Positions 34,849-58,203 of a stretch of 64,000 nt of DNA are shown here, piece after piece (position 1 is the stretch's first letter; the number at the start of each line of letters is the position of its first letter). Position numbers and translations under genes: made by a program. Source of the stretch: Dictyostelium discoideum (lineage: Eukaryota); assembly GCA_000004695.1 (NCBI GenBank), contig CM000151.3, forward strand, positions 1,952,001-2,016,000. Reading direction: 5' to 3'. The notes beneath the pieces are model-generated. The model searched no databases. It was not told the DNA's origin and worked only from the letters and a program-made list of their open reading frames with translations.

Positions 34849-35547
34849 ATGAATGAAAATGAAGGAATAATAATAGAAAATATTAATAATGATAGTGGTA
34901 GTACATATTTAATGAATATATTAGGTATATTAATACCAATAAAGATAGTTGTTACAATTTATTTATTTTCAAAAGCAAGATTACCAGTTGGATTTGCAAG
35001 ATATTTTGGTAGGTTATATCATTTTATGACCAACCCAATAAGATTAGGATTACAAATTGCAGGTCTTAGAGGACCTTTCATAAGTCAATTGGATGATAAC
35101 GTTTATTTGGGTGCAATGCCAATGGGATCAGATGTAACATTACTATTTTACAAATATAAAATCAATTCAATCGTTAATCTTTGTGATGAATATCAAGGAC
35201 CAACTCAACATTACACTCAATATGGTATGCAACAATTGTATGTGCCAGTGGTTGATCATTTCGAACCAGATGTTGAAATCATTGAGAAATCAATTCAATT
35301 CATTTTAAAACAAATCGAATTAGGAAATCGTGTTTATATTCATTGTAAAGCTGGTAGAGGTCGTTCAGGTGCAATCGCAATCTGTTGGATAGCTTACTCA
35401 AGACGTGTTTCATTAGAAGTTGCTCAAAAAATTTTATTAGAAAAAAGAAAAATAGTTAGAAAACAATTATATAAACAAAAAAATGTTAATCAATATTATT
35501 CATCTTATTGTTTAAATAGTAATATTAATTCAACAACATCAATTTAA
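34849..35547 (+). CDS. PTPMT1/PLIP-like dual-specificity (PTEN-like) lipid/protein phosphatase with an N-terminal membrane anchor; single exon, 232 aa
   Basis: [99 protein letters not shown] aligns with human PTPMT1 (VLLGALPLRS...GVRGVITMNEEYETRF...LGVEQLRLSTVDMTGIPTLDNLQKGVQFALKYQSLGQCVYVHCKAGRSRSATMVAAYLIQ), including the HCKAGRxRSG CX5R P-loop. The hydrophobic N-terminus ([21 protein letters not shown]) fits a mitochondrial inner-membrane anchor. This may correspond to the Dictyostelium plip gene, but I cannot confirm that. Confidence 0.75.
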
Positions 35548-35847: not shown

Positions 35848-36067
35848 ATGAATAAAAATCAAAATGATTGGAAAGTTGAATTAAGAAAAGCAACAAGATC
35901 AAGTTTAATTAGTATAACCAATGAAACAGATTTTCAATTACAAAGAATATCATGTAAATTACAACAGGGAATGTTAAGATTAATCCCACCAGGTATGTTA
36001 ACAAGTTTAATTATTTTATGTTTTTCCCCCCCTACAAGTGGTGTGATTGTTGACATTTTATTTTGTG

Positions 36068-36103
<36 letters not shown>

Positions 36104-39100
36104 ATTATACCACCAAAATCAAGCATAGAATTTGGAACAGAAAGTAATGCATTTATGACAGGTACAAAAGGATCAGTAATTTATATAGTATTACCACCAT
36201 CAAGTTCACCGATTAATGTTGGATCAATTCAATCATTAACTCATTTACAATCATTAAAACTTTGGGATCCATTAGTTTATATTATAATTGAATGGTCAAC
36301 ACCATATTGGTCACAACATAGTTGTAGTATTCAAGTACAACCACAACAAAATTCATCATTATTAAATGTTAAATCAAATTTATCACAAAGAGAAATTAAT
36401 AAACAAATTCATTCAGAAGTTTTAATGTTTATACATAATAATGATAGTAATGGTGAAATTCAATTTAAAATTTATAAAAATTCATTATCAAATAGTGGTA
36501 ATGGTAGTAGTGGTGGTAATAATAATAATAATAATAATAGTTTAAATAATAGTAATAATAGTATAGGTAGCAGTGGTGGTAATGGTGGTGGTGGTAGTAA
36601 TGGTTCATCACCAAGTATGTCACCACAATTTACATCAATTTCAAAAACAAATTCACCACAAATTATTAATACAAGTAGTAATAATTTAAATAGTAGTAGT
36701 GGTAATAATAATAAACCAATATTTTCAATTGTAGATAATGATTATACATCATCACAATCAACATCATCAATACCAGTAGTTGCAGGTATAAATAGTAATA
36801 GTAATAGTAATACTAGTGGTAGTGGTAGTACAAGTATATCATCACCAAATTCATCATTTTCATCAAGTTTACCATCATTTTTTTCAAATAATTTCCCATT
36901 ACCATGGTCAAATGATGGATTTGGAGTTGATGGTGGTTGGAAAGCAAATGTAAAGAGAGGATCACGTGGTCAATTTATAACGATTCGTAATAATACAAGT
37001 AAACATTTAATAAGAAGGAATCAAACATGTTTAAATAGTGGAAGATGGTGTGAACCACCACCAGAGGGTATACCACCCAATTCTATGATTGAATTTGGTT
37101 CGGTTAGTAGTGGTTTCACTACGGGTACTGATGGTGTAATTCATTATCATAGTCAAGGTTCGAAATCTGATTTTAGATTTCAATTTAATAATCCATTAAT
37201 GGGTAAATCATCATTCACCTATCATTGTCCAAATGGTTTCAATGTTGAAGAGAAATATACTGATGGTAATATCTCATCAGTATCATTCACAATTAATGAA
37301 GGTGATAGTCAAACAATTCCAAAACAAATACCTGATTCACCATTACCAATACCACCAATTAAAACTGATCCAAAACAAGTTTTCATAAATGATGATTCAA
37401 TTAGAATATTTTCATTTAATGTTGGTTCAATAAATGTTAAAGAAAGTGGTAAAGAATTAATGAATATTAATAATAATAATAATAACAATAATAGCAATAA
37501 TAATAATAATAATAATGATCAAAATAAAGATAAAGATAATCAAATGTTAAATAATTCAAATTTAATTAATAAAAGAATTGAACAAATTTCAAAGAATTTA
37601 ATTAATTTTTCAGAGAAATATGATATAATATTATTACAAGAAGTATTTTTAGATTCATCAAAAGATATTTTAATAAAGAATTTAAAGATTTATTATCCTT
37701 ATATTATTGATAGATGTGGTGAAAATTCGGGATTATTCTTTGCAAGTAGATTCCCACCACTATGGAATGAATTTAGACAATTTAATAATGGTATTGGATC
37801 TGATGTAAAATATGGTAAAGGTGTACAAGGTGTGAAATTGGATATATCAACCATTAAAGAGAATACTTATCTTTACGTTTTCAATGCAAATTTACAAGCT
37901 AATCCTGATAACTCAATCGCTTGGCAAATGGTGAATGGTGATGATAAGCAAAGGAAAGCAGCAACAGTGCGTACATTACAATTACAATCGATTCGTGATT
38001 TCATTTCAACGGAATTGGCAATGCAATCTTCAACCATTGCAAACTCTGCTCTATTATTAGTTGGTGATTTCAATTTAAATGCAGAGGTTGAGCAAGTCAT
38101 TTCCGATCATGAGAGTAATAGTATCACTCTCTCACAAATCATACCAGAGTTGGCAAAGAAAATCAATAGTAAAGAGATCACCCTAACTTTTAGTTACCAA
38201 TTGTTAGAGTATTTAAATGATTTAAATATTCCAATGAGATATTTAGGCATTCTAAGATCACAATTACAAAATAATCGTATGAAATCTTTGGTACTCACTG
38301 AAATGATCACCTATATCATCAAGAAGGATATCATTGAACATTTAACTCAACGTCATAATCAATATCAGTCAAATATTAATGAAGATGAACAAATCTATAG
38401 AGAGGTGGTATTGGAGACTTTTAATTTAATATTTCATTATACTAGAAAGGATTGTATTCAATTTTGGCGTCATCATCTTAGAAAGAGATTAAGATCCGAG
38501 TTTAGTTCATCCCTATCGGAAATTGAACAACAAGATTGGGTGGATTTAAGAACTCATGTAATTAATCTTCAACTATTTACAAGTTTAAAATATTCTTTAG
38601 AGATCACTTTTAATCCAAAAGCTGTTTTCCAAATTATGAAAGGTTCAAGAATAAATACAAAAGAAATCATACCCATACCATTGATTTTACCTGAACAAAT
38701 CGAAGAAATCATTTTACCACCATTAACTTCTTATTGGGGTTCAGATTCAAATACTGATATAAATTATTTTACAAATATTGATCATTTAAAAGAACAACAA
38801 AAAAAACAAGCTCAATTACAACAATTACAACAACAACAAGCTCAACAACAACAACAAGCTCAACAACAAACCCAACAACAACAAAATTCAAATATAAATA
38901 TAATTAATACAATAGAATCATCACAAATTCAACAAAATAATAATATACAAATTTATTTGAAACAAACTGATGAATATAATAATATGTTAAAGATATTAGG
39001 TAATCCTGTTGATTTATTTAGAGAGTCTAATCCATTTTCACCAGGTTATACAATTCATCAATCTTTAAATCAACGTGTTGAAAAACCTTCACTCAAAGAA

Positions 39101-39280
39101 CGTGTAGATTATATATTAAACTTTAAATTATCTCCAAATTTTGGTGATCATGAAGGTAGAAATCAATTATTAAAATTGGAATGTACTGAAACTAATATAG
39201 TTCCAATGGGTGCAACTCCTCAAACTAGATTATCAAATCATTTTGCATTAGAATGTATATTACATATTAAAAAGAAATAA
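35848..39280 (+). CDS. Large protein with an internal duplicated N-terminal module, a Ser/Asn/Gly-rich linker, an EEP (endonuclease/exonuclease/phosphatase, neutral sphingomyelinase/CCR4-like) catalytic domain and a Clu-like C-terminal region. 2 exons: join(35848..35992, 36102..39280)
   Basis: The gtatgt...aaaaag intron has verified phase (cca g|...|ag = GAG). Repeated module: IPPKSSIEFGTESNAFMTGTKGSVIYIVLPPSS versus IPPNSMIEFGSVSSGFTTGTDGVIHYHSQGS. EEP motifs: IRIFSFNVGS...YDIILLQEVF...YLYVFNANLQANPDNSIAWQMVNGDDKQRKAATVRTLQLQSIRDFI...LLLVGDFNLNAEVEQV (LQEV and GDFN are hallmark Mg-dependent phosphodiesterase motifs). C-terminus: ITLTFSYQLLEYLNDLNIPMRYLGILRSQLQNNRMKSLVLTEMITYIIKKDIIEHL resembles the CLU central domain (...MRYLG...). 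A Gln-rich coiled-coil lies near the end. Confidence 0.6.
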
Positions 39281-40164: not shown

Positions 40165-40456
40165 TATTTTTTATTATTTTTTTTTAATTAAAAGATAAAT
40201 AAATAACAAATAATTTAAAATTTTTGATATAGATGTAAGCTTTAAAGACCCATTTTCAAAAATTAGAATATCATTTTGTATTTTATTTTTTATTATATCA
40301 TTTGCAAGTTTATATTTTGGTAAAAGATCATATGATATTAGAAAAAAACCGACCTTTTTTACAGTTATAGCTATAATAGATTCAATAAGTTCTGCTTGTA
40401 TGTTTATTTATTTATTTATTTTTTATTTTTAAAAAATTTTTTTACATCATTATTAA

Positions 40457-40491
<35 letters not shown>

Positions 40492-41555
40492 ATAGTAAAG
40501 GTATTAGTTTTAGGAACCGAATTTATTAAACCAACTTCATTTATACAAATTGGAATTTCATCATTTATTTTTAATTTTAATTATATTTTGGTTCATATAT
40601 CAGTATCAGCTTTGGTATTTTATTGGTTTTATTTTTATTTCTATTTATTATTTTTTTGTTTTTTTGATAAAAAAACAAAATTTAATTTATACTTTTTTTT
40701 ATTTTTATTTTTTATTTAGGATTCATAAATATCATGATCATATAAAAAAACAATCAAAGAGTTGGTCATCAATGTTTATATGTGTAATATTTTTAATGTT
40801 TAATACATTTGGAATTTTAGTTTGTTTTGTTTATGCATATTGTGAAGCAAATAGGTTATGTGATTCTCAATTTTATAGGTCAACAACATATATAGTAAAT
40901 ATAATTTACTTTTTAGCTGATGTTTGTTATGCAGGTTCACTATTTGTTTATGGTTTTTTAATTGGTAAAAATCATAAAAAATCAATGGGTGTATGTATAA
41001 TAATTTTTATTATTTTTATTATTAAATTATAATTATTATAATTTTTATTTTTACATATTAATATTTTTTTTTTAAAAAAATTAAACAAAATAGATATTAG
41101 TTTGTTCAATTGCATTAGGAGTTACATTTTTATATAATGCAGTTGAATTATTTACAACAGCATTTATATCATCATTAAATGAAGTTCAATCAATGTTATT
41201 CGATATAACTGATTTATTAAATATAATTATTATTTATTTATGTGTGATTGGAATTGTTCATTTTGATACAGAAGTAAAAGTTAGATATTTAAAAAAATTG
41301 GAAGTTCCAAATCCTGACAAAGAAGAAAATATCAGTAATTCTCATTATATTCAAAATATAAATAAAATTACAAATGGTGATTTCAATTATAATAATAATA
41401 ATAATAATATTAATAATAATAATAATAACAATTTACATCGTCATCAAAATCATACTGGTGGTGCTGGAGGTATATCACCAATCTCAATTTTTAATAATGG
41501 TAATAATAATAATATTAATAATAATAATAATAATAATGGGAAAACTGCCATTTAA
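40058..41555 (+). CDS. Small multi-exon polytopic membrane protein with an Asn-rich C-terminal tail (about 5 exons; exon borders approximate: 40058..40121, about 40234..40402, about 40497..40632, about 40719..40973, about 41093..41555)
   Basis: Exon 1 is MPRYFYIFNETTYDMDLKLAC followed by gtaagag. Downstream exons are hydrophobic (ISFCILFFIISFASLYFGKRSYDIRKKPTFFTVIAIIDSISSACMFIYL; WSSMFICVIFLMFNTFGILVCFVYAYCEANRLCDSQFYRSTTYIVNIIYFLADVCYAGSLFVYGFLIG; LVCSIALGVTFLYNAVELFTTAFISSLNEVQSMLFDITDLLNIIIIYLCVIGIVHFDTEVKVRYLKK) and are separated by short AT-rich gt...ag introns. Exon borders were not all phase-checked. Confidence 0.4.
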
Positions 41556-41620
41556 TAAACAGTTTATAAAAAGTTTAAAAGAATTATATTTTTTTTAATT
41601 TTTTTATTTTTAATTTTTAA

Positions 41621-42415: not shown

Positions 42416-45400
42416 ATGGAAAACTTTAAATATAGAAATAATGAAAATGATGTTGCAATTATTGGTATTGGATTTAGATTACCAGGTTGTAAAAATTTTA
42501 CACCAAATGAATTATGGAATAATTTAAAAAATGGATTTAATGGAGTGGTTGAATTAAGTAATAGATGGAGTGACAATTTCTATACAATGGGTAAAGTTAG
42601 TAGTGCATATGCTGGTTTATTACCATTTGACGAACTAAAATCGTTTGATCCATTATTTTTCGGTATTAATCCAACAGAAGTGCCAACAATTGACCCACAA
42701 CAAAGAATATTATTAAAATGTACATGGGAAGCATTTGAAGATGCTGGAATTGATCCAATTAAAATCCGTGGTTCAAATACATCGGTTTTCATTGGTACCT
42801 CAACTAATGATTATCAAAGAATCATTAGAGAAAAAGATCAAACAATTACAAATGCATTTGGTACATCTTTACATGCTACATCAAATCGTATTTCATACTG
42901 TTTTGATTTTCGTGGTCCATCAATGACTCTTGATACTGCTTGTTCTTCCTCTTTAAATTGTGTAAAATTAGGTTATCAATCAATTAGAGATGGTACTTCA
43001 AATTTATCAATTGCTGGTGGTGTAAATTTAATTATTGGTAAATTATTATTTTAATAATTAATTAATTATTATTATTGTTATTTTAAATTAATTTTTTTTT
43101 TTTTTTCTTTTTAGATCCATACTTTACTGCTAGTATTTCCGATTTAAATATTCTTAGCAAAACTGGTTCATGTAAAACATTTGATGCAAGTGCAGATGGA
43201 TTTGCACGTGCTGAAGGGTCTGGTATAATTGTTATGAAGAATTTGAAACAAGCAATGATTGATGGTGATAAGATTTATTGTGTAATTAAAGGTGCTAGTT
43301 CAAATGTAGATGGTGGTGGTTTACAAGATAAATCCAATTTTTATGCACCATCATCTTTATCACAATGCAATAATATTAAGATGGCATTAAAATCAACTAA
43401 TGGTACTGTTGAACCAAAAGATATTTCATATTTTGAATGTCATGGTACTGGTACACCAACTGGAGATCCAATTGAAACTAGAGGTATTTCAATGGTTTTT
43501 AATGATGAAAGTCGTTCAAAAGAAAATCCATTATTAATTGGTTCAATTAAATCAAATATTGGCCATTTAGAAGCTGGTTCTGGTATTGCTTCATTAATTA
43601 AATGTTGTTTAATGTTTAAAAATAAATGTTTTGCTCCAAACATTAATTTTAAAGTACCCAATCCTAAAATTAAATTTGAAGAATGGAATTTAAAAGTTGT
43701 AACTGAACCAATTCAATTCACAAAATCAAATACTTGTATTGGGTTAAGTAATTTTGGTGTAACTGGTTCAAATTGTTGTTTAATTTTATCACAATTTAAC
43801 AATAATAATAATGATAATCAAATTGTTGGAAATAATAATAATATCAAATCAAATAAAGAATATCTAATACCATTCTCATCAAATTCTGTTAAATCATTAG
43901 AAAACTATCAACAATTGTTAATTAAAAATGGTGAAAATGAATTTAAATTTTTAGAATTTATTAAACATCAAATTTTTACTAAACCAACCTCACTTTATCA
44001 ACGTTCTGTAGTTATTGCATCAAGTTGGGATCAATTTAATAATGCCAAGATAATGAAAACATCAAATTCAAAATCATCAAATATTTCAATTGAAAGAAAT
44101 AATCCAATAACTGTATTTGTATTTTGTGGTCAAGGTTCACAATATGATAGAATGGGTTTGGAATTATATAATAATGATTTTATTTTTAAAGAATCAATGG
44201 ATTTATTGGATAATAAATTATCAAAATATTATGGTTATTCAGTTTTAGAGAAATTAAGAAATTGTGATTCAAAATCAATTCAGCATCCAATGATTGCTCA
44301 ACCTGTAATGTGTATGTTTAATATATCATTATTTGAATTGTATAAACATTGGGGTATAGAAGTATCATTTATAATTGGCCATAGTTTAGGTGAAATTCCA
44401 GCAGCATATTGTTCAGGTATGATTAATATAGATACTTTATGTTATTTAATTTATCATAGATCAATCGCACAAACTAAAACCCATACCAATGGAAGAATGT
44501 TATCAATTAATATCAGTGCAGATGAATACTTTTCACAATATTCTAAACAATATCCAGATATTGAAATTGCATGTTTCAATTCACCAACTTCAATAGTCAT
44601 TGCCGGTAATGAACAAAAATTAAACGAAATTTCTGAAATTCTAAAAGAAAAAGGTATATTTTCAGCAATGTTGGCTTCACTATCATCATTCCATACAAGT
44701 AGCCAAAATAAAGTAAAAGAGGATATTGTAAATAAACAATTTGATTCTAAACAATCTGAAATTCCAATATTTTCTACAGTTACAACAAATTTATTCGATT
44801 CAGTAACATCACCATTCAACTCTAGTTATGTATTTAATAATATAGTTTCTCCAGTTAAATTTTCACAAACAATTTCAAATTTATATAAACATATAGAATC
44901 AAATCAATTAGGAAATGATATCGTTTTCATTGAATTGGCTCCACATCCAACATTACAATTTTATTTAAAACAAATGATACCAAAACCAACTAATGATGAT
45001 AATTCAATTGAATTTAAAGTTTCAGTTTATTCAGCACTTAATAAGAAAAACAATGATATTGAAGAAATTCAAAGAACCATCTCACAATTATATTGTGATA
45101 ATGGCTATAATGTTAATTTTAAATGTCAATTCCAACATGATGATACCCATGGATCCATCAATTCAAATATCAATCAATTATCTAATATTAGTTTACCACA
45201 TTATCAATGGGATGATGAAAAATATTGGAAAGAAGATCCAAGTATTTCCAAACTTATTGTAAATGGTCCACAAACTGATAATTTAGGTTATTTAAATGAA
45301 AATTCACCAAATTCCAAATCATATGAAACATTTATAGATATTAAGAGACCACCATTCCAATATTTAAAAGGTCATATGGTAAAAGGAAAATACTATTTCC

Positions 45401-48400
45401 CAGGTTGTGGTTATATTGATAATTTATTAAAAATATACAAATCACAAGATTTAACAATTAATCAAATGGGATTTAAATCACCATTAATTTTTATAGAAGG
45501 TGTTAATCAAGCTTTACAAACAAATATATTTAAAAAATCAACTTCTAACACCACCACCAATAATAATGATGAATTTAGAGTTGAATATCATTTTAATGAT
45601 CAAAAAACAAATCGATGGATTTTATCATCATTTGGTGATTTTCAATTATCAAATCATTCAAGTAACTCTGATAATTTAGAAAAGATAAATATTAAACAAT
45701 TAATCCAAAATCAATGTAATTTAACAAAATTATCAAGGGATGAATTGTATAGTCATATAAAATCTAAAACAGGTTTAACATATAATGGTGTATTCCAAGG
45801 TGTAAATAAATGTTATCTTGGTGAAAATTGTTCATTATCAGAGGTTTCATTAGAATTAAAGAGAGAGCCATCATCATTTTTCAATACTGCTGTATTAGAT
45901 ACATGTTTACATGGTATGCTTTGTTTGTTAGAGGAACAATCTCAATTGGTGTTTGATAGAATTGAAGGTTTTAAATACCATTCTTCAAATGTACCAACAA
46001 GTGAAGAAGAAATGAAAATACATTCTAATATTTATGTTTACTCTACTATTAATCCATCAAGAATTGGTGATTCATATTCTGCATCAATTGTAATAATGAT
46101 GGAAGATGGTACGGTTTTAATTGAAATTGAAAATGCAGTTTGTACATCTTTAACTCCAATTAAAGAATCAATATCAGTTAAATATCCAACTAATCAATTA
46201 TTTTCAATGTATCTTCAATCTAAAGATTCACCAATTCCATCACCATTAAATTTCAAATCATTATATAATCAAAACCAACAACAATTAAAAATAGATAAAC
46301 AATTTACAGATTGGATGCAAAAATGTGAAAAATTCATTTCAAATCAATTCTTTAAAAATATTGAAAAAAGAAATCCAGAAATTAATTTAGAAATTTTAAA
46401 TTCAAAAACCATTATTGAATTAAAATCAAAATATTGTCAAAATTTAAAAAATGAAAGATTATTTCAATTTGTTTTTGAAACTATTAAACAACTTGGTGTT
46501 AATGCCTATGATGATGATGATGATTTAACAATTGATTCAAGTGAAGATAGAAAAAGTATTTATGAAATTTTAATAAAATCAACTAAAGTAATTCCAAAAT
46601 TATTATTCCCATTAGAGGATGAAGATTTAACAATTGATTCACCACAATCTCTTTTTGAAAATGGTTTATTGGATAGATTTTATAATAATCCAAATTTAAT
46701 GACAAATCAATGTCAGCTTATTGCTCAAATTATTAAAGAATCTTTAAAACCATTATTAAATAAAAAGATGGTATTTAGAATTTTAGAAATGGGTGGTGGT
46801 ACATGTTCATTATCAGTTGTTGTATTAAATTTAATTAATCAATTACTTTTAGAGAATCCTTCATTTGAAATTGATATAGAATATACTTGGAGTGATATTT
46901 CACCATCGTTCATCTCAGCCGCTAAAGAAAAACTATCACATATAGATAAACGTATAAATATTCTATATCGTTCAATTGATATTGAGCAACCATTTATTGA
47001 AAAGCAAGATCTTAGTCCATCATATTATGATTTTGTAATAATGTCAAATGTATTACATGTTGTAAAGAAATTATCACCAAGTTTAGATGAAATTCATAAA
47101 ATACTCACTCCAAACGGTCATTTATTATTTGTTGAAATTCCATATAAAGAACTTATATCTGATAGTATTTTTGGTGCATTCAATCAATGGTGGGCATTTG
47201 AAGACACTGATATTAGAAAGGATAGATGTAGTATACCACCAAATCAATGGATTCAAGTTTTGTCGAATCACAATTATAAAGATACTATAGTCTCTGATAA
47301 TAAAGAATGTACATGGTGCTGTTTTGTTATTCACTCTCAAAAACCATCACTTTTAGAACTATCAAAAAAAATTGAATGTAATCAATATGATAATATTATA
47401 GTTTTTGGAAATGAAAATAGTCAAGATAATTTCACCAAATCTATAAAATTATCATATAATAATAATATAATTAAATGGGTATCAAATATTGTAGAAATTA
47501 AAAAGTTTATTAAATTAAATATTATTACAAATAATTCAATAATTTATTTTACAAAAGGTATTGAAGAATTAACAATTGATAATTTCAAATTAATTAATTT
47601 CCAATATATTCAAATTAATCAATTATTATTAAAATATGAATCAAAATGTAAAAATGTATTGGTTACTCGTGATTGTGATGGTTCAAATTATTTAGCATCA
47701 TCATTAATCGGTGCAGCAAGATATTTTGATGAATATCGTCAACTTGAATTATTTACTTTAGATTTTGATAATGATACAATTCAATCATGTGATGAATGTA
47801 GTAGTAGTAGTTGTAGCAATTTAATTAAATTAATTGAACCATTAATTGATCCAAAAATTAATATTCAAAGAGAATTTTTAATTAGAAATAATCGAGTTTA
47901 TTTTGAAAGAGCAAAATTAGAAACAAATTTAAAGAAATCTTTTAAATCTGAATCATTTGAAAATAGTAATAAATTAATTTCAACATTAAATTTTAATTTA
48001 GATTATCAATTACAATCCAAACCATTTAAACAATTACTACAAAATGAAATTGAAGTTGAAATTAAAGCAACAGGTATTAATTATAGAGATTATTTAGTAT
48101 TTACTGGTTCTTTACCAATTGAAAAAACTAATCATAATGGAATATCAAATCAACCTGAATTTGGTGTTGATTTTTCTGGTATAGTTACCAAAGTTGGTGG
48201 TGGTGGTGGTAATGGAGAATTTAAAGTTGGTGATAGAGTTTATGGCATTGGACATAATACAACATCATCACATATAACAATTGATTCAAGATATGCTAGT
48301 TTAATACCAAATAGTTTAGATTATATTGAAGCTTCATCAATAACATCTTCATATATATTGTCATTGTATGGTATTTTTGATATTGGTAATTTAGATATTC

Positions 48401-50148
48401 AAGATAATGAATCAATTTTAATTCATTCAGGTACTGGTGGTATTGGTTTATCAGCATTAAATTCATTGAGATGGAAAGGTCATAAATCCCATCTATTCGT
48501 TACTGTTAGTTCAAAAGAAAAAGAACAATACCTTCGTGATAATTATGGTTCGTTCATTACAGGAATTTATTCAAATAAAGATAAGAACTATCCAAAATTA
48601 ATTAAAGAAAAGTTAAATCAATTAGGATCAAATAAACAAGGTGTAGATTTAATATTAAGTAGTTTACCAAATGGTGATGATAATTTAAATTTTAAATGTT
48701 TAGCAAAGAATGGTAGAATAATTGATCTTTCAAATAATATTGATTTATTTAATATTAGTAAAAGTAAAATTAAGAAATTGTTAAATACAATTAATGATGG
48801 GTTTGAAAGTGGTGAATTACAAGTGATACCAATTATTGAATTTTCAAACTCAAATATTAGAGATGCAATTGAATTTATTAATGAACGTCAACATATTGGT
48901 AAAATAGTTATATCTCATGATGATTCAAATCTATTAATTGATTTAATTAATAAACATTCAAACCAACCAAATTATTCAATACTAAAATCAGATTACCAAA
49001 TTTCTCAATCAAATTTAGGTAAAAATATATTAATTACCGGTCAATCAGGTATAGTTTTAGAAATTTTAAAATGGATTATTAAATTTTCAAATTCAATTGA
49101 AAATGTTATAATTTTATCAAAATCATTAATGAAATGGGAATTGGAATTATTAATTGGTAAAACAATGAAAAAAGCAAATAACAAAATTAAATTTCATTTC
49201 AAGAGTGTTGATGTAAGTGATTCAATACAAGTTGAGAATTCAATTAATCAAATTTTAAATGATAATCCAAATATTGTAAATATCGATTCAATTTTTCATT
49301 TTGCATTTACTCAAATAACTAAAAAAGTTGAAGAAATTGATATGGAAAGTTTAAATGTATCTCATAATGCCAAAACTATTGGTGCAATTAATTTACATAA
49401 TCAATCAATTAATAGAAATTGGAGATTGAATAATTTTGTAATGGCATCATCTGCAACATCAATCATTGGTTCAACCGATCAGTGTAGTTATGTTTGTGCA
49501 AATACTGTATTGGATTCATTATCAAAGTATAGAAAATCAATTGGGTTGCCATCAATTTGCACAAATTATGGTGCTATTGAATCAGCAGGTTTCGTATCAA
49601 AGAATGAATCTGTTGCGGCAATGTTTAATGGTATTGGAATTATTTCAATCTCAACCGATTTAATATTGGGTACATTGGATTTACAAATTCAAAATCAACA
49701 ATCTTCAACCAATTTAATGTTGAGTGATTTTAATTTTTTAAATTTTGTAAATAATAATTTACAATTATCATTAATCTCAAAATTTGATTTCCAAACTAAT
49801 TTAGCTAAAAATCAAGTTAATGAAAAATTACAAAACCAAACCCAAAATCAAAACCTTCAAATTCAATCACCATCATCAACAACTGATTGTCAAACAATTA
49901 TTAAAGATTCATTTTTACATAAAATTTCTGAAGTACTATCAATTGATATTTCAAAATTAAATTTGGATTTGAAATTATTAGACTATGGTGCTGATTCTTT
50001 AGCAATTGTTCAAATTAAAAATTGGATCGATATGGAAGTATCACCAAATTTAATTGTCATTCAACAACTTCAAACTTTTACAATAACTTCATCCATTCAA
50101 TATACAATTAATTCATTTTTAAAGAAAAAAGTTCAAAGCCAAGAATAA
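42416..50148 (+). CDS. Type I iterative highly reducing polyketide synthase, 2552 aa, 2 exons: join(42416..43037, 43115..50148). Domain order KS-AT-DH-cMT-ER-KR-ACP
   Basis: KS: [13 protein letters not shown]...[19 protein letters not shown]...[14 protein letters not shown] (active Cys codon 42941..42943), spliced across a 77-nt gtaaat...ctttttag intron (phase checked: g|at = D) to ...[11 protein letters not shown]...[14 protein letters not shown]...[17 protein letters not shown]: [14 protein letters not shown]...[11 protein letters not shown] (44378..44395). DH: [22 protein letters not shown]. cMT: [14 protein letters not shown]...[13 protein letters not shown]: [13 protein letters not shown]...[13 protein letters not shown]: [16 protein letters not shown]...[24 protein letters not shown]: [18 protein letters not shown] (Ser codon 49996..49998). 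No TE or R domain is present, as in many Dictyostelium PKSs. Confidence 0.85.
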
Positions 50149-51431: not shown

Positions 51432-52583
51432 CACTTTTTACTTTTTACTTTTTTTATTTATTTATTTATTTAATAACTAACAGTCCATTTTCTAAAATAA
51501 ATAAATAAATAAAAAATTTAAAACATAAAAAATAATAATAATAATAAATTTATAAAAATTCAATTTAAATATTTATATATTAAAAAAATAAAAAATAAAA
51601 AATAAAAAAAATAAAAAAGATTTAAGAATGATGGTAGAGATTTAGGAATTTTAATACAATTAGAATCAAAGATTGGTGAAGAAGTAGGAGCATTTAAAAT
51701 AGAGAATTCAAACTTAACAAGTATAGACTATCCATTATTAAAATCATATGGTATGAGTCCTGAAATAGAGAATAGTGGTAGTGGTAGTAGTAGTGGTAAC
51801 AACAATAATAATAATAATAATAATAATAATAGTTTGGTACATGGGGATATAAATATAGAGGAATTAATAAAGAATATGACAATCGATCAATATTACGATA
51901 ACAAAGTATCAATGATGAATATCGTTGATCTTATGCCCGGTAAAGAGATTACAATGATTTCAAAATATTTAAAAGAATTACCAACTATAAAAACTAATAA
52001 CAATAATAATAATAATAATAGCAAACCAAATCCAAATATAGATAGTAGTAATGGAGATGAGATAATATCGATAACCATACCGAAACAGACATCAATAACA
52101 TCACCATTCCCACCAATAAATATAGAGATTACAATCGATGGTGAAGTTAGTATACCACTTCACTCATCGGTATGTCCATCACATCCATCATCAATTTCAT
52201 CATTGACCCTATGTGAGAATATCATATCATCGAAACATGATATCAAAAGTAATTCCTTATTGAATGATGATTTCAATTTACTCATTGGTTTAGAATCAGA
52301 ATTGCATCACAGTGGTTGGACAACATGTACATTATCACCCTCCTCATCACCTCCATTATTATCCTCCTCTCCAAATTCACTACCACCAACCACTGTAATT
52401 TCAACTTTGATAAATTTAAATCAACCAACACCACCACTTGTCGATAGAGTTTCTTTTAACAATGTAGAATATAGTCTAAATAGTTCATCAACAACAACTA
52501 CATCTTATAGTAATAATAAACAAACTATAATTTATAGTTTGAATAATAATGATAATAATACAAATAATACAAATAACAATACA

Positions 52584-52614
<31 letters not shown>

Positions 52615-53955
52615 TAATTTTAAAGTATAATAATAACAAAGAATTTAACCTTTTATTAAAAACCCCAACTTTACCCTCTTCATCGAGTATTTTAAATAAA
52701 TTTTCTTCACTTTCAAAAATTCAACAATTATGTAAAAATAATGATAATAATAGTAATAATAATAATGATAATAATAAAAATAATGATAATAATAATAAAA
52801 ACAATGATAATAATAATAATAGTAATATAGATACAGGTACAGGTTTAGATATAGGTACATTATTGAATATAATATTCACAACATCAAATAATAATAGTAA
52901 TTTAGTAAATAATAATAATAATAGTAGCAATACGATAGTGTCACCACTTTCACAATCAGCACCACCAATTAATAATAATAATAATAGTAATAAAGATATA
53001 TCAATGATTGAACAAAATATAACGACAACATCATCACCACCAACAACAATAACAACAACATCACCACCATTACCAAAACTTCAAGAATCTGGTGAACTTT
53101 TATCAAATATGTTATCGAATTTACCAAAAGCGAAATTAGGGGGATTAAATCAACAAAGTTTAACAGCACCACCATCAGTTGGTAAAGATCTTTCAAATCC
53201 AATTGCAGATTTCATAGCAAGTAGAGCTGCAGCAGGTGGTTCAAGTGGTAGTAATAAACCCAAGAAGGGACCACCACCTAAATTGGGTGGTTTAGGTGGT
53301 GGGTTGAATACCTCAACAGGTGCAGGTGGAATTGGTGATGTTAGAGTACAAAGATTGGCAAGTTATAATAAAGTCAACCAATTATGGAATGTTTCATCAT
53401 CAGATTTTGCACAACGTGTTTCAATTACCCTAAGAGAACTTGAACCCTATGCAATTGATTATGCATTGTCTCATATTAAATCAAAGTGGTGGGACAAGAA
53501 TAGGATAGCAACACTAGCTGAAATCAAATGTATACATTCTATAATCTCTTCAATCATTAATAGTCCAAAAATTAATTTAACATATATTTCTCCATCATCA
53601 TCATCATCAACAAACTCTTCAAATTCAGACGCAAAAGATCAAACATCAACCACTACAACCACCACTACATCATCACCAACTCCAAGTGCTTCAGATGTAG
53701 CAGCAAGTAGATTTTTATTACAAAAAGGTAGTTTTACTGATTTAACAAAATTAATGGGAAAACCACAATCATCATCATCATCATCATTATCACCCTCATC
53801 TTCACTCAATCCTTCACCATCAACCTCATCAAATTCTTTATTATCACCATCATCACCAAGTAAAACGAGAAAAGAGGTAGAGATGGAAATTGATCCAGTA
53901 AAACTGAGATGGATTGTTGAAGAAGTTTTAAATGGTGAAAAAGCGTCAATAGAGA

Positions 53956-53999
<44 letters not shown>

Positions 54000-54919
54000 G
54001 GTAATAAATGGTTTAGTGTAAGTATTGGAGAAACAAAAGGAGGTAGACCTCATATGGAGGATAATCATGTTATTCTTGAGTATCCATATGAATTATATGG
54101 TTTAGAGAAAAAGAAAAGTGTAGATTCAATAGCAGGTGCAAATAGTAATAGTAATAATAATAATAATAATAATAATTGTATAAGTATTTTATCATCAAAT
54201 GAACAATTCTTTTTTGGTGTATTTGATGGTCATAATGGAAAGATAGCAGCTGAATACTCAAGAGTTAATTTACCTTATGAAATTTTTAATAGCTTTATAA
54301 AAATTAACAAAGTTGGCAACAGCGCAAACAATAACAATGTTGATGATTTATGTTTGGAGGCTATCAAACAAGGCTATTTGAATACAGATAAATACTTTTT
54401 AGATTATGCAGAATCTGATAATAAGAAAGCAGGTACAACAGTTGCAACAGTGATCTTGGAAAGAGAAAGATTTATCGTTTCAAATGCAGGTGATACAGAG
54501 GTTGTATTATGTTCAGGAGGCATTGCTGAACCATTGTCAATCATTCATACACCAAAATTAGATACTGAAAGAATACGTATAGAGAGTGCTGGCGGTTCAA
54601 TCATTCATTATGGTACACTAAGAGTCAATGGTTTATTGTCAGTATCTCGTTCCATTGGTGATAAGAATTTAAAAGAATTTATTATACCAAATCCTGATTC
54701 CCACATTCACAATATCAATAAACCCAATGACCAATTCTTAATGATTGCAACTGATGGTCTTTGGGAAGTTTTTAACCATCAAGATGTAGTCAATGAAGTC
54801 CTAAAATTATTACAAGATAAAACTATTCAAAAAGATGATATCTCTTCAATCATTGTTGAAGAAGCAATTAAAAGAAATTCAAAAGATAATATAACTTTAA
54901 TAATTATTTTCTTTAACCA

Positions 54920-54926
<7 letters not shown>
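51225..54926 (+). CDS. PP2C-family Ser/Thr protein phosphatase with a very long low-complexity N-terminal region, 2 exons: join(51225..51364, 51620..54926). Exon 1 is tentative; the unambiguous ORF starts at 51753
   Basis: C-terminal PP2C catalytic domain: GETKGGRPHMEDNHVI...FFFGVFDGHNGKIAAEYSRVNLPYEI...AGTTVATVILERERFIVSNAGDTEVVLCSGG...LSVSRSIGDKNLKEF...FLMIATDGLWEVFNHQDVVNEV (motifs xxDGHGG-like FDGHNG, GTT, NAGDSR-like NAGDTE, SRSIGD, DGLWE). Proposed upstream exon MVLNLVSDENGLDISFISYNVTFIDRCAQFTVTLKYKNLSSLPLPLK ends with a|gtacat donor. The phase rejoins the main ORF at acceptor ...aaaaaag|ATTTAAG (aa+a = AAA, then FKNDGRDLGILIQLESK...), with a 255-nt AT-rich intron. Confidence 0.6.
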
Positions 54927-55065: not shown

Positions 55066-55611
55066 TAAAATCAAAAAATAAATAAAAGTTTAAATTTTAA
55101 ATGCAACTTTTATTAAAAATATCAATAAATAAATTTAAAATTTTAAAGTTAATGTTCAAATTATTTTTATTTTATTTTATGATTTTTATCTCGTCATTTG
55201 ACTTTTTCTTTTTTGATTTTTTTTTTTTTAAAATTTTTTTAATTTTTTTTTTATTTTTTTTTTTTTATTTTTCATTTTTTTTCGATTTTTCCACTCACAT
55301 TTATTTATTTTTTTTTTTTTTTTATTTTTATTATTTTTTTTTTTTTAAAATTATTTTTTTTATTTAAATATTATAAAAAAAAAAATAAACAAAACATTCC
55401 CACACACACACACACACACACCAACAATACCAACAACAACGGCAGCAAAAATATATTTTTTTATCACATAAAAAAAAAAAAAAATAAAAAACAATAAAAC
55501 AATACTTTAAAAAAAAGTTCTGTTTTTTTTTTTAATTTTTTAGTTTTTATTTTTATTTTTTCAGAAGGTGGGCAAAAAGCGAATAAAATAATAAAATAAA
55601 ATAAAAACAAG

Positions 55612-56422
55612 ATGATTGTTGATGAAGAAGATGGACCTTTAGTTGGAGAGGAGGTCAATAACAATAATAATAATACTATTGATAATATTACAAATGAAGA
55701 AAGTGATGAAAACAGTGGTAGTGTAAATAATAACAACGATAATGGCAATGGTGTAAGATCAAGATTCAATAAAAAAGATGATCAAACATCAGAGAGTAGC
55801 GATGATCAAACTTTACCACAACCACCACAACAACAACAACAAAGTAACAGTAACAGTAATAATAGCAACAACAATAAAAATGTACCAAAATTAGTAAAGA
55901 TGGTAGTTTCAAGCGATAGTGAATCTGATTTAAATAGTAACAAAAACAATATAAATCCAAACGCTTTAATTGGTGTTTGTGCTGATGGTACTAGATTCCC
56001 ATTACCTTATACAAAGAATCCACTTACATTACATCCAATCAGTGAATGGTCTTTCTTTGATTATGCAAAGAATGCTTCATTAGCAAGTTTATTATTATTA
56101 TTATTCAATTTACCAGGTTGGGTAAGTAAATTTATACACCTATAAATGAAATATATATATACATTTAGAGATAGAGAGAATGAATATTTACTAATTAAAA
56201 AAATAAAAAAAAAATAAAAAGGTTTTCATTGCTTGGTTTATATTTTGGAGATTTATGTATAACATCGGACTTGGTTTATTACTTAGATATCAATCAAATA
56301 CAACATTCATCACCAAATTCGTTAAAACTTGGTCAAATCCTTCTCATCCATTATATCCACATTTAAAACAATTTTGTACTTCAGGTATGGGTTCAGACTA
56401 TGATTTTGATGTAAGTAATTTA

Positions 56423-56458
<36 letters not shown>

Positions 56459-57354
56459 GTCATTAATTTTATTTTATTTTAATTTTTTTTTTTTTTTTAT
56501 AAATACAGAATACTCCAGCTGAATATAATGCATGGTTAGCATTTAGACACATTGTTGATATTGTTTTAGCAAATGATTTAGTAACCTATGTTGTATTTGC
56601 GTTAGCATATTATGAAATTCCAAAAGATGTAGGATTCTCTATTATTCCAATCTATTTGTTAGGTGCATTCTTATGTGCATTCACATTTTGGGCAAAGACT
56701 GATGCATACCGTGTCGTTAAAGATTTCGCATGGTATTGGGGTGATTTCTTCTTTTTAGTTGATCAAAAATTAACTTTTGATAGAGTTTTCTCAATTTCAC
56801 CACATCCAATGTATACAATTGGGTATGTAAAAATAATAATTAATAATTAATAATAATTTATAATACTAATACCAATATATATATATAAATAAATAGGTAT
56901 ACATTTTATTATGGAGCAAGTTTAATAACACAAAGTTATACAGTACTTTATGTTAGTTTATTCGCACATTTTTGTCAATTAATATTTTTAGTACTTGTTG
57001 AAGATCCACATATTCAAAAGACTTATCCAGAGATTGTAGAAGATCCACATATTACACGTGAAAAAGTTAAAACTTATTTCGGTCATGATTTGGTTGTAGT
57101 AAAGAATTTCCAATTCCTTCGTGCAGCTGATCTTTTCACTTTGTTAATTGTAATCTATACATTGGCATTGAATTTATTATCACTTCCAACTTGGTTCTAC
57201 ATTGTTCAAGCTATCTTTTGGAGATGTGTTCTTTCATTTGGTTTAGGTTGGGTACTTAGATTACAATCAAATCAACAATGGTGGACAAATAAATATCAAT
57301 CTGTTCTTGGTAAAGATAAATTCATTTCTTTTGAAAATTGGAAAAAGTAAGTTT

Positions 57355-57386
<32 letters not shown>

Positions 57387-57422
57387 TAATCCATAAATAC
57401 TAATTTATTATTTTTTATTTAT

Positions 57423-57457
<35 letters not shown>

Positions 57458-58203
57458 TTTATAATTTATGTTTAATTATGGCACATATTTCATTTACATC
57501 ATGTTTTTTCAAATATGTTCAAATTGATTTCAATTTCTTTGGATCAATCTTTTGGAGACAAATTTTAGGTTTAATGTTAATTTTAATCAATTTATGGAGT
57601 TCCTTATCAACATTTGAAGTTTTGGGTGAATTTGGTTGGTTCTATGGTGATTTCTTCATTGAAGATATTCCATCCAATCTTTATTATACAGGTATCTATA
57701 GATTTTTAAATAATCCAGATTCTGTAACTGGTTTCGCTGGTTTCTATGGTCTCAGTTTAATTGCCGGTAGTTTCCCATTATTTGCCTTGTCAATATTCTC
57801 ACAAGTTGCCAATTTCCTCTTTATCAAATTCGTTGAGAAACCACATATGAAGAGACTCTATGGAAGTAAAGTACGTTCTCAAAGTGGTATTTCCAAAGGT
57901 ATTCAAGAGATTGTCAATGAATTAACTGAAACTTCACCACCAATTCAAAAATTAGTTACAAAAACTCGTAATCTTACTGAACGTGTTGAAAGAAGAGTTT
58001 CTGATCGTATTAATTCCTTTGTTGATGAACTTCAAAAACATGGTATTCCATTATCAACTGAACAATTTGAAATTTTAAAAACTTTAAAAGAGAAATATAA
58101 TAATAATAATAATACTTCACCAAGTGATAGTGATAATAATAATAGTAATAATAATAATAATAACACTAATAGTAATAATAATAAAAAATCAAAGAAAATA
58201 TGA
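55612..58203 (+). CDS. Phosphatidylethanolamine N-methyltransferase, Cho2/Pem1 type (two PEMT-like membrane domains), 5 exons: join(55612..56121, 56222..56410, 56509..56822, 56897..57346, 57456..58203)
   Basis: All four introns begin gtaagt or gtatgt and end (a/t)nAG, and the phase was verified at each junction. The product contains [64 protein letters not shown] (first PEMT-like SAM-binding membrane domain, HPxY motif) and EVLGEFGWFYGDFFIEDIPSNLYYTGIYRFLNNPDSVTGFAGFYGLSLIAG (second). This is the arrangement of the yeast CHO2 class. The stop is TGA. Confidence 0.65.

What the first reader, a model, noticed from the sequence alone, without database searches (positions are those of the whole stretch)
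42416..50148. Stand-alone 2552-aa highly reducing iterative PKS with a C-methyltransferase domain and no release domain
A complete KS-AT-DH-cMT-ER-KR-ACP module with all catalytic motifs intact, interrupted only by one 77-nt intron inside the KS domain. It ends directly after the ACP, with no thioesterase, reductase or chalcone-synthase domain, so product release needs a trans-acting enzyme. No classical tailoring genes (O-methyltransferase, P450) flank it within the window. The nearest oxidoreductases are an NmrA-like reductase at 28098 and the degenerate 2OG oxygenase at 30040, roughly 12-14 kb away. The product is unpredictable from sequence.
Basis: partly seen in the sequence, partly recalled or inferred. 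Interest (0 to 1): 0.6.

Follow-up and report, generated by a model that had tools for sequence, protein, structure and literature searches.

The report
Dictyostelium pks13, a known polyketide synthase
This is the already-annotated Dictyostelium discoideum gene pks13, an intact and evolutionarily maintained giant polyketide synthase of a common local type; its one oddity is a lineage-specific deletion in the enoyl-reductase domain.

Summary
A two-exon gene (42416-43037 + 43115-50148, with a 77-nt GT-AG intron) encodes a KS-AT-DH-cMT-ER-KR-ACP synthase. The protein is 100% identical to D. discoideum AX4 Pks13 (DDB_G0272981, UniProt Q559A9), so the gene is already known, though its product is not. 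The catalytic motifs of KS, AT, DH, cMT, KR and ACP are all intact and conserved in the D. citrinum and D. firmibasis orthologues. Whole-gene dN/dS is 0.17-0.22. Ending at the ACP is ordinary here: 19 of the 40 DdPKSs do, including Pks16 (the fatty acid synthase) and Pks5 (same architecture, 54% identical, makes the dictyodene polyene acids). No thioester-reductase remnant, second PKS or conserved tailoring gene lies nearby, so "stand-alone" holds. One qualification is new. The Pks13 ER keeps its NADPH glycine motif (TGGIG) but has lost about 22 residues, the betaE-betaF excursion and strand betaF of the Rossmann fold. This loss is unique to the Pks13 orthogroup among 106 family members. ER activity, and therefore how reduced the product is, is uncertain. 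Interest is low.

The parts
42416..43037 (+). pks13 exon 1 (codons 1-207 plus the first base of codon 208); N-terminal part of the KS, including the active-site Cys176 (DTACSSS)
   Evidence: The ATG sits in an A-rich context. The translation is identical to AX4 Q559A9.
43038..43114 (+). 77-nt intron (GT...AG) inside the KS domain
   Evidence: Removing it restores the KS sequence 'GGVNLIIDPYFT'. The same position is interrupted in the D. citrinum (135 nt) and D. firmibasis (81 nt) orthologues.
43115..50148 (+). pks13 exon 2 (the rest of codon 208 to codon 2551, plus the TAA stop at 50146-50148)
42446..43650 (+). Ketosynthase domain (aa 11-386; spans the intron): Cys176, His317, Lys353, His358
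   Evidence: Pfam PF00109 236.6 bits and PF02801 107 bits. Motifs are conserved across the family.
44113..44979 (+). Acyltransferase domain (aa 541-829): GQGSQ546-550, GHS631LGE, Arg656, SSFH734 (malonyl-type Phe)
   Evidence: Pfam PF00698 143.4 bits; motif alignment.
45310..46167 (+). Dehydratase domain (about aa 940-1225): H961xxxG965xxxxP970, [11 protein letters not shown]1136xxxH1140
   Evidence: Pfam PS-DH 36.9 bits. Alignments to Pks16 (233 bits) and the CurK/CurF DH structures. Motifs conserved.
46681..47289 (+). C-methyltransferase domain (about aa 1397-1599): SAM motif I ILEMGGGT (1430-1437), Asp1468, His1522, Glu1548
   Evidence: Pfam Methyltransf_12 47.9 bits. It aligns to the active C-MTs CurJ, PsoF, PksCT and LovB (E 3e-18 to 5e-14), with His and Glu in register. 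Pks16-type FAS orthologues are degenerate at these positions, which serves as a control.
47998..48918 (+). Enoyl-reductase (MDR) domain (about aa 1836-2142): NADPH motif HSGTGGIG (1978-1985) intact; TVSSKEK present
   Evidence: Pfam ADH_N 33 bits; ADH_zinc_N_2 scores only 21.8 bits, below the cut-off of 27. Alignments to Pks16, CurK, MAS and JamJ ERs. AF2 model pLDDT 92. Foldseek top hits are 9nju, 5doz and 5bp4.
48712..48747 (+). Junction of the ER deletion: G2074[11 protein letters not shown]2085. About 22 residues ('ITHLNxNEYxNNxxFKYNxGYH' in paralogues), comprising the betaE-betaF excursion and strand betaF, are missing between S2080 and N2081/N2082.
   Evidence: Family alignment. Length census: 60 residues from the betaE 'GR' to 'HIGK', against 80-84 in 95 of 106 relatives; the orthologues have 69 and 71. 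AF2 of Pks13 shows no betaF, while the Pks14 control shows betaF at ER residues 272-275. DNA view.
49030..49581 (+). Catalytic ketoreductase subdomain (aa 2180-2363): TGQSG (2182-2186), Lys2294, Ser2320, Tyr2333, Asn2337
   Evidence: Pfam KR 91.7 bits. Alignments to Pks16, AmphB and EryKR1. Motifs conserved.
49879..50142 (+). Acyl carrier protein domain (aa 2463-2550): phosphopantetheine-attachment Ser2502 (GADSL). The protein ends one residue later.
   Evidence: Pfam ACP_SdgA_C 106.4 bits; motif. No TR-like sequence lies downstream.

Best explanation
The region is the known gene pks13 (DDB_G0272981) of Dictyostelium discoideum, one of about 40 FAS-like iterative type I polyketide synthases in this amoeba. 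It is a functional, selectively maintained gene.

Inferred mechanism, from the domain set and the family:
- The Sfp-type PPTase DiSfp primes Ser2502 of the ACP.
- The AT loads malonyl units.
- The KS (Cys176/His317/His358) extends the chain iteratively.
- KR and DH process the beta-carbon.
- The C-methyltransferase, whose SAM motif and His/Glu dyad are intact, adds an alpha-methyl in one or more cycles.
- The product leaves without an in-cis offloading domain, most likely as a free acid, as in Pks5 and Pks16. Release would be by hydrolysis or by an unidentified trans-acting enzyme encoded elsewhere.

Whether the ER acts is open. Its NADPH glycine motif is intact and conserved, but strand betaF and the preceding loop of its Rossmann fold were lost in the Pks13 lineage. 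The product is therefore either a methyl-branched, largely saturated acyl chain (ER active) or a methyl-branched polyenoic acid resembling dictyodene (ER inactive).

Shown: gene identity, gene model, domain order, motif integrity, purifying selection, the ER deletion, and the lack of a conserved cluster. Inferred: chemistry, release mode and ER status.
For: - Identity: the window protein equals AX4 Q559A9 'Probable polyketide synthase 13'.
- Domains and order.
- Residue-level alignments to solved DH, C-MT, ER and KR structures.
- All KS/AT/DH/MT/KR/ACP catalytic motifs are intact and conserved in four D. discoideum strains and in the D. citrinum and D. firmibasis orthologues.
- dN/dS is 0.17-0.22 for the whole gene, 0.07-0.10 for KS, 0.09-0.15 for KRc and 0.22-0.29 for ER.
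- The intron position is conserved.
- Wild strains carry intact ORFs that are about 95% identical.
- Offloading domains occur in only 21 of 40 DdPKSs (PMC12828403).
- Pks5 has the identical architecture and yields C18 heptaene free acids with one C-methyl (PMC9618038). Pks5 is 54% identical to Pks13.
- DiSfp is needed for all DdPKS products (PMC12625978).
Against: - No experimental datum on Pks13 itself was found: no product, no knockout and no expression profile.
- The ER deletion means one of the seven domains may be non-catalytic.
- dN/dS shows constraint but cannot separate catalytic from purely structural constraint.
- The release mechanism is unknown even for the characterised relatives.
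Confidence: 0.9

Rival explanations
1. ER-inactive sub-case. The loss of betaF and the betaE-betaF excursion has killed enoyl reduction. Pks13 is then effectively a KS-AT-DH-cMT-ER0-KR-ACP synthase that makes a methyl-branched polyene or polyenoic acid, by analogy with Pks5 and the dictyodenes. The ER is retained only as a structural dimer module.
For: - The deletion removes about 22 residues that 95 of 106 relatives keep at fixed length, including every paralogue and the FAS Pks16.
- The AF2 model has no sixth Rossmann strand, whereas the Pks14 control does.
- By spacing, the deleted interval corresponds to the stretch between the proposed proton donors Lys1771 and Asp1797 of animal FAS ER (inference; those residues are cited in PMC4394236).
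- Pfam ADH_zinc_N_2 drops below its threshold.
- There is family precedent for a retained but unused ER in Pks5.
- ER dimers are architectural in these synthases (PMC12828403).
Against: - The NADPH motif TGGIG and the TVSSKEK segment are intact and conserved in all Pks13 orthologues. In the Pks5-9 clade, where the ER is evidently unused, they have decayed to SDGFG and TVxxxETK.
- The NADPH pocket is the most reliable determinant of ER activity, and single 'catalytic' residues are dispensable (PMC7327777).
- ER dN/dS (0.22-0.29) is no higher than for DH, MT or AT.
- The acidic residue of 'NIDL' is retained.
Confidence: 0.45
2. ER-active sub-case. The shortened ER still binds NADPH and reduces enoyl intermediates. 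Pks13 is then a true highly reducing PKS that makes a methyl-branched, saturated or mostly saturated fatty-acyl product.
For: - The glycine motif and 2'-phosphate region are intact and conserved.
- The ER is under purifying selection similar to the other catalytic domains.
- The AF2 fold is confident overall, with TM 0.78-0.85 to solved active ERs.
- AF3 modelling of all DdPKSs reported failure of NADPH binding only for the Pks10 ER (PMC12828403).
Against: - Loss of a core beta-strand and the loop next to the nicotinamide/substrate site.
- AF3 also accepted NADPH in the Pks5 ER, although the Pks5 product is a heptaene, so that criterion is weak.
- No enzyme with this deletion has been assayed.
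Confidence: 0.45
3. A decaying, non-functional paralogue (an incipient pseudogene) in a rapidly turning-over gene family.
For: - The family shows lineage-specific birth and death and includes five pseudogenes (PMC3188802; PMC9618038).
- There is no clear D. purpureum orthologue; the best hit is 53% identical, the same as the paralogues.
- The ER carries a structural deletion.
Against: - The 7.6-kb ORF is uninterrupted in four D. discoideum strains and two sister species.
- dN/dS is about 0.2 throughout.
- All essential motifs are conserved.
- The intron and downstream synteny are conserved.
Confidence: 0.04
4. Core of a biosynthetic gene cluster that uses nearby oxidoreductases (NmrA-like at 28.1 kb, 2OG oxygenase at 30.0 kb) or the downstream PEMT-family methyltransferase as tailoring or release enzymes.
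For: These ORFs exist. A PEMT-fold enzyme could in principle methylate a carboxylate.
Against: - Synteny with D. citrinum and D. firmibasis stops at about 40.2 kb. The sister species have MFS, saposin-GDSL-lipase and PALP genes upstream instead, and none of the window's 28-39 kb genes.
- The PEMT gene is a multi-pass membrane, Cho2-like protein that is 95-99% identical between species. That is far more conserved than pks13 (80-84%) and fits housekeeping phospholipid synthesis.
- The immediate neighbours are a small membrane protein and a PP2C phosphatase.
Confidence: 0.05

Closest known systems
D. discoideum Pks13 itself (DDB_G0272981, UniProt Q559A9, 'Probable polyketide synthase 13')
   Same: 100% identical over all 2551 residues, and the same gene model. 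It is among the 40 DdPKSs that were modelled with AlphaFold 3 in PMC12828403.
   Different: Nothing differs. The annotation is 'probable', and no product, phenotype or ER peculiarity is reported in the papers searched.
D. discoideum Pks5 (DDB_G0271520), the dictyodene synthase
   Same: Identical domain string, KS-AT-DH-MT-ER-KR-ACP, with no offloading domain. It is 54% identical over the full length (PMC9618038). Its C-MT is functional, and its product is released as a free acid.
   Different: The Pks5 ER has a degenerate NADPH motif (HLGSDGFG) but keeps the betaE-betaF segment. Pks13 is the reverse: motif intact, segment deleted. The product of Pks13 is unknown.
D. discoideum Pks14 (DDB_G0272859), the closest full-length paralogue, about 35 genes away on chromosome 2
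   Same: 56% identical, with the same KS-to-ACP architecture and motifs.
   Different: Pks14 has a C-terminal thioester reductase (NAD_binding_4; 2998 aa) and an intact ER with strand betaF. Pks13 has neither, and no TR remnant lies downstream.
D. discoideum Pks16 (PDB 9nju), the primary fatty acid synthase
   Same: It is the best solved-structure match (1533 bits over the whole length), has the same overall architecture and also ends at the ACP.
   Different: Identity is only about 37-40%. The Pks16 lineage has a degenerate, inactive MT and an intact ER segment.
Fungal HR-PKS LovB (PDB 7cpx) and animal FAS (2vz8)
   Same: The same KS-AT-DH-(C)MT-ER-KR-ACP megasynthase layout. LovB is also a precedent for a structurally retained but inactive ER (own knowledge of the LovB/LovC system).
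   Different: LovB ends in a condensation domain and FAS in a thioesterase (PMC12828403). Sequence identity is low, and the alignment to LovB covers only KS-AT-DH(N) strongly.

Membership tests
Iterative type I PKS / FAS-like megasynthase (DdPKS family) | Single module with a KS carrying the Cys-His-His triad | tested here: met
   Cys176 (DTACSSS), His317 (HGTGT) and His358 (NIGH), plus Lys353; PF00109/PF02801 hits.
Iterative type I PKS / FAS-like megasynthase (DdPKS family) | In-cis AT with GHSxG Ser, Arg and His; malonyl-type motif | tested here: met
   GQGSQ546, Ser631, Arg656 and SSFH734; PF00698 143 bits.
Iterative type I PKS / FAS-like megasynthase (DdPKS family) | ACP with a phosphopantetheinylation Ser in a (G)xDS(L) motif | tested here: met
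   GADS2502L; PF23297 106 bits. Actual modification was not testable.
Iterative type I PKS / FAS-like megasynthase (DdPKS family) | Iterative use of the module; actual polyketide production | not testable with these tools
   Inferred from the single-module architecture and from Pks5, Pks16 and Steely precedents (PMC9618038, PMC12828403).
Highly reducing PKS (full beta-processing set) | KR with a Lys-Ser-Tyr(-Asn) catalytic set and a nucleotide motif | tested here: met
   Lys2294, Ser2320, Tyr2333, Asn2337 and TGQSG; this variant of the motif is shared by the whole DdPKS family, including the FAS Pks16.
Highly reducing PKS (full beta-processing set) | DH with the HxxxGxxxxP His and the DxxxQ/H Asp | tested here: met
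   His961/Gly965/Pro970 and Asp1136/His1140; alignments to the CurK and CurF DH structures.
Highly reducing PKS (full beta-processing set) | Competent ER: a complete MDR Rossmann fold with an NADPH-binding GGxG motif | tested here: inconclusive
   The motif HSGTGGIG is intact and conserved. However, about 22 residues including strand betaF are deleted, uniquely in this orthogroup. AF2 shows no betaF, against the Pks14 control. Pfam ADH_zinc_N_2 is below its threshold.
C-methylating PKS (active CMeT domain) | SAM-binding motif I, an acidic post-I residue and the catalytic His...Glu dyad | tested here: met
   ILEMGGGT, Asp1468, His1522 and Glu1548, in register with PksCT, CurJ, PsoF and LovB. 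They are conserved in the orthologues and degenerate in the Pks16 FAS lineage. Activity itself was not testable.
DdPKS subclass without an in-cis offloading domain (Pks5 / Pks16 type) | The protein ends at the ACP, with no TE, TR or CHS domain | tested here: met
   The ACP ends at aa 2550 of 2551. tblastn with the Pks14 TR region finds nothing downstream (best E 0.47, elsewhere in the window).
Steely-type hybrid (type I PKS fused to a type III chalcone synthase) | C-terminal chalcone-synthase domain | tested here: not met
   No such Pfam hit, and no sequence follows the ACP.
Dictyostelid fatty acid synthase (Pks16/Pks17 type) | Orthology to Pks16, with an inactive MT | tested here: not met
   About 37-40% identity to Pks16-type proteins. 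Pks13 has an intact MT, whereas that lineage's MT is degenerate.
Biosynthetic gene cluster | Tailoring, release or transport genes adjacent and conserved in synteny | tested here: not met
   The conserved neighbours are a small membrane protein, PP2C, a Cho2-like PEMT and a DnaJ/zf-MYND protein. Synteny breaks at about 40.2 kb, and the sister species' upstream MFS, GDSL-lipase and PALP genes are absent from the window.

The most novel reading that the evidence does not exclude
The Pks13 orthogroup (D. discoideum, D. citrinum, D. firmibasis) has lost strand betaF and the preceding excursion of the ER Rossmann fold, yet keeps the NADPH glycine motif under purifying selection. If the ER is dead, this is a second, mechanistically independent route to ER silencing in the DdPKS family: a deletion, rather than the motif decay seen in Pks5-9. 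Pks13 would then be a cryptic methyl-branched polyene synthase. If the ER is alive, it is a naturally minimised five-stranded MDR enoyl reductase. Neither state has been described for this enzyme.
Probability: 0.45. Interest if true: 0.35.

Novelty: already known. Interest (0 to 1): 0.2.

Why it matters
It matters little as a discovery. The gene, its family and the absence of release domains are textbook features of the D. discoideum genome. Pks13 is still one of about 35 orphan amoebal PKSs whose products are unknown. The ER deletion gives a concrete, testable hint about product saturation. It also gives a natural experiment on how much of the ER Rossmann fold a megasynthase can lose. The analysis shows, too, that for this family 'all motifs intact' should include fold completeness, not only signature residues.

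Tried and rejected
- **Literature.** I searched for any Pks13-specific datum using 'pks13'+Dictyostelium, DDB_G0272981 and DiPKS13, plus the main text and held supplements of PMC12625978, PMC12828403 and PMC9618038. The hits were only mycobacterial Pks13 or plasmids, or there were none. Ghosh et al. 2008 (JBC) is not held.
- **Lost thioester reductase.** tblastn with Pks14 aa 2561-2998 against the window gave only noise, with best E 0.47 at an unrelated place.
- **PKS fragments or pseudogenes elsewhere in the window.** None at E <= 1e-3.
- **Trans-acting release enzyme by synteny.** The saposin-GDSL lipase upstream of the D. citrinum and D. firmibasis orthologues looked attractive, but it is absent from the D. 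discoideum window. It is therefore not a conserved partner.
- **PEMT-family gene as a tailoring methyltransferase.** Rejected as Cho2-like housekeeping, being 95-99% conserved and a multi-pass membrane protein.
- **Technical problems.** A Biopython NJ tree timed out and was replaced by numpy distances and clustering. The first tblastx synteny run mixed two loci in one file and was redone.
- **Corrections to earlier statements.** I first assumed the window equalled the 100% hit P0001. It actually equals AX4 P0123, and P0001 differs at S2549R. An early notebook entry called P0017, P0019 and P0007 'Pks10-like'; one search shows they are Pks6/7/9, Pks8 and Pks5.


Full report
**Observation.** The window is extremely AT-rich: 13-28% GC, with coding blocks around 24% and intergenic DNA around 13%. 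That is typical of Dictyostelium. On the + strand, an ORF at 42416-43054 and a 2304-codon ORF ending at 50148 join by removal of a 77-nt GT...AG intron at 43038-43114. The resulting CDS is 7656 nt, or 2551 aa plus the stop.

**Identity.** The protein is 100% identical to UniProt Q559A9, 'Probable polyketide synthase 13' (DDB_G0272981, chromosome 2) of D. discoideum AX4.
- The 100% hit in the large database (KAM9951960.1, from a newer assembly) differs at one residue, S2549R.
- Two other D. discoideum strains carry intact alleles about 95% identical.
- The orthologues in D. citrinum (84%) and D. firmibasis (80%) are intact, with the intron at the same position.
- The best D. purpureum hit (53%) is no closer than the paralogues. 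This fits the lineage-specific expansion of the family described in PMC3188802.

**Domains and catalytic residues.** Pfam gives KS, KS-C extension, AT, PS-DH, methyltransferase, ADH_N (ER), KR and a C-terminal HR-PKS-type ACP, with nothing after it. The best solved structure is the native D. discoideum Pks16 (9nju), followed by LovB, MAS and animal FAS. I aligned each processing domain to solved structures, and I aligned the whole protein to 18 orthologues and paralogues. The following are intact and conserved:

| Domain | Residues and motifs |
|---|---|
| KS | Cys176, His317, Lys353, His358 |
| AT | GQGSQ, Ser631, Arg656, His734 with a malonyl-type Phe |
| DH | His961...Pro970, Asp1136/His1140 |
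| C-MT | motif I (ILEMGGGT), Asp1468, and His1522/Glu1548 in register with the PksCT/CurJ/PsoF/LovB C-methyltransferases |
| KR | Lys2294, Ser2320, Tyr2333, Asn2337 |
| ACP | Ser2502 |

As a control for the method, the Pks16-type FAS orthologues show the expected degenerate MT in the same alignment.

**The ER exception.**
- The ER keeps its NADPH motif (HSGTGGIG, aa 1978-1985) and the TVSSKEK segment.
- Directly after strand betaE ('NGRIIDLS'), about 22 residues are missing. Every paralogue and Pks16 has them ('ITHLNxNEY..FKYNxGYH').
- In a census of 106 family members, the distance from the betaE 'GR' to the C-terminal 'HIGK' is 80-84 residues in 95 proteins. It is 60 in all four D. discoideum Pks13 alleles, and 69 and 71 in the D. 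firmibasis and D. citrinum orthologues. In those two species the gap is partly filled with Asn-rich AAT/AAC-repeat sequence. The loss therefore predates the three species and was completed in D. discoideum.
- AlphaFold2 models built on the same family alignment are confident for both Pks13 ER (pLDDT 92) and the Pks14 ER control (pLDDT 93). The control has betaE, then an excursion, then betaF (ER residues 272-275), then a helix. Pks13 goes from betaE through a six-residue loop straight into the helix, with no betaF.
- The overall fold still matches solved ERs, with TM 0.78-0.85.
- By spacing, the lost interval corresponds to the stretch between the proposed proton donors Lys1771 and Asp1797 of animal FAS (inference; the residues are cited in PMC4394236). 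The acidic residue of 'NIDL' remains.

Whether this kills the ER cannot be decided by sequence. ER catalytic residues are individually dispensable, and the NADPH pocket is the best predictor of activity (PMC7327777). That pocket motif is conserved in Pks13 but decayed (SDGFG) in Pks5-9, and the product of Pks5 is a heptaene.

**Selection.** Nei-Gojobori dN/dS among the three species is 0.17-0.22 for the whole gene. It is 0.07-0.10 for KS, 0.09-0.15 for KRc and 0.22-0.29 for ER, the last being similar to DH, MT and AT. The gene is maintained. The ER is at least structurally constrained, which is consistent with ER dimers being architectural in these synthases (PMC12828403).

**Release domain and context.**
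- The protein ends one residue after the ACP domain. No thioester-reductase remnant lies downstream, and there is no other PKS fragment in the window.
- This is normal for the family. Only 21 of 40 DdPKSs have an offloading domain (2 chalcone synthases, and the rest probable thioester reductases) (PMC12828403).
- Pks16 (the FAS) and Pks5, which has the identical KS-AT-DH-MT-ER-KR-ACP architecture and makes the dictyodene free acids, both lack one.

**Neighbours.**
- Immediately upstream is a small hydrophobic protein gene (about 40.2-41.6 kb). Downstream are a PP2C phosphatase (51753-54926), a Cho2-like PEMT membrane methyltransferase (about 55.6-58.2 kb) and a DnaJ/zf-MYND gene.
- Synteny with both sister species covers exactly this block and breaks at about 40.2 kb. 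Upstream, the sister species carry MFS, saposin-GDSL-lipase and PALP genes that are absent from the window. The window's NmrA and 2OG genes (28-31 kb) are absent from the sister loci.

**Mechanism.**
- Shown: a complete, conserved catalytic inventory for chain extension with malonyl units, ketoreduction, dehydration and alpha-C-methylation on a phosphopantetheinyl ACP.
- Inferred: iterative operation, activation by DiSfp (PMC12625978), and release as a free acid by hydrolysis or by an unlinked trans-acting enzyme, as for Pks5 and Pks16.
- Open: enoyl reduction. I put roughly even odds on an active ER (a methyl-branched, saturated or mostly saturated product) and an inactive ER (a methyl-branched polyenoic acid).

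**Comparison and novelty.** The object is a member of the DdPKS family. More precisely, it is the already-annotated Pks13, which was included in the 2025 AlphaFold 3 survey of all 40 DdPKSs (PMC12828403). The closest characterised relative is Pks5 (54% identity, same architecture). The closest paralogue is Pks14 (56%), which has a TR domain and an intact ER. It is not a Steely hybrid, not the FAS, and not part of a conserved cluster. The only element I did not find in the papers searched is the orthogroup-specific ER betaF deletion.

**Verdict.**
- Observation: confirmed.
- Interpretation: largely right but overstated. The ER is not fully intact, and the missing release domain is not unusual.
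- Novelty: already known.
- Interest: low (0.2).

Noticed in passing
window 40200-41600 (+): A small multi-exon gene encodes a very hydrophobic, membrane-like protein with an Asn-rich tail. It is the only conserved upstream neighbour of pks13. One stretch is 93/93 aa identical to D. citrinum (window 40718-40996), and one ORF tested (window 40550-41029) has no Pfam hit. The sister-species gene models are 387 and 374 aa.
   Followed up: partly
window ~40200 (synteny breakpoint); L001/L002 1-7700: Upstream of the pks13 block, D. citrinum and D. firmibasis both carry an MFS transporter, a saposin+GDSL-lipase (564 aa) and a PALP enzyme. D. discoideum instead has an Exo_endo_phos protein (36047-39280), a DSPc phosphatase (34849-35547), an Rsa3 protein (31840-33207) and others. 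A rearrangement therefore separates the species here.
   Followed up: partly
window 55600-58203 (+): A Cho2-like PEMT-family membrane methyltransferase gene (the PF04191 hit is in the last exon, 57478-58203). It is 95-99% identical at the protein level to the sister species, far more conserved than pks13, so it is probably housekeeping phospholipid synthesis.
   Followed up: partly
P0007/P0128 (Pks5), P0017 (Pks6/7/9), P0019 (Pks8): ER domain: The whole Pks5-9 clade has a degenerate ER NADPH motif (HLGSDGFG or HLGSDSFG in place of HSxTGGxG) and an altered TVxxxETK segment. This fits the heptaene product of Pks5 and predicts an unused ER in its tandem paralogues too.
   Followed up: partly
P0004 (D. 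citrinum ACTFIU_008717, 2576 aa) vs P0126 (Pks14, 2998 aa) and P0006 (D. firmibasis, 3019 aa): The D. citrinum Pks14-like protein lacks the C-terminal NAD_binding_4 thioester reductase present in D. discoideum and D. firmibasis (judged by length and Pfam list). Either the offloading domain is gained and lost between close relatives, or the gene model is truncated.
   Followed up: no
P0032, P0041, P0055, P0056, P0058 (MT-less PKSs of 2125-2299 aa): Over the KS-AT region, these methyltransferase-less PKSs are as close to Pks13 as Pks14 is (59-63% identity). They come from D. firmibasis (RB653_010286, 14 gene numbers from the Pks13 orthologue), D. citrinum, D. cf. discoideum and D. dimigraforme. 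No D. discoideum sensu stricto member appeared among the hits, so the gene may be lost or pseudogenised there.
   Followed up: no
L002 18006-19077 (-): D. firmibasis has an extra called gene (327 aa, no Pfam hit) between the pks13 orthologue and the PP2C gene. It has no counterpart in the window or in D. citrinum.
   Followed up: no
window 30040-30885 (-) and 28098-28997 (-): The 2OG-Fe(II) oxygenase-like ORF scores 26.7 bits, just below the Pfam threshold of 27. The NmrA-like ORF is a strong full-length match (340 bits). Both lie outside the block that is syntenic with pks13 in the sister species.
   Followed up: partly
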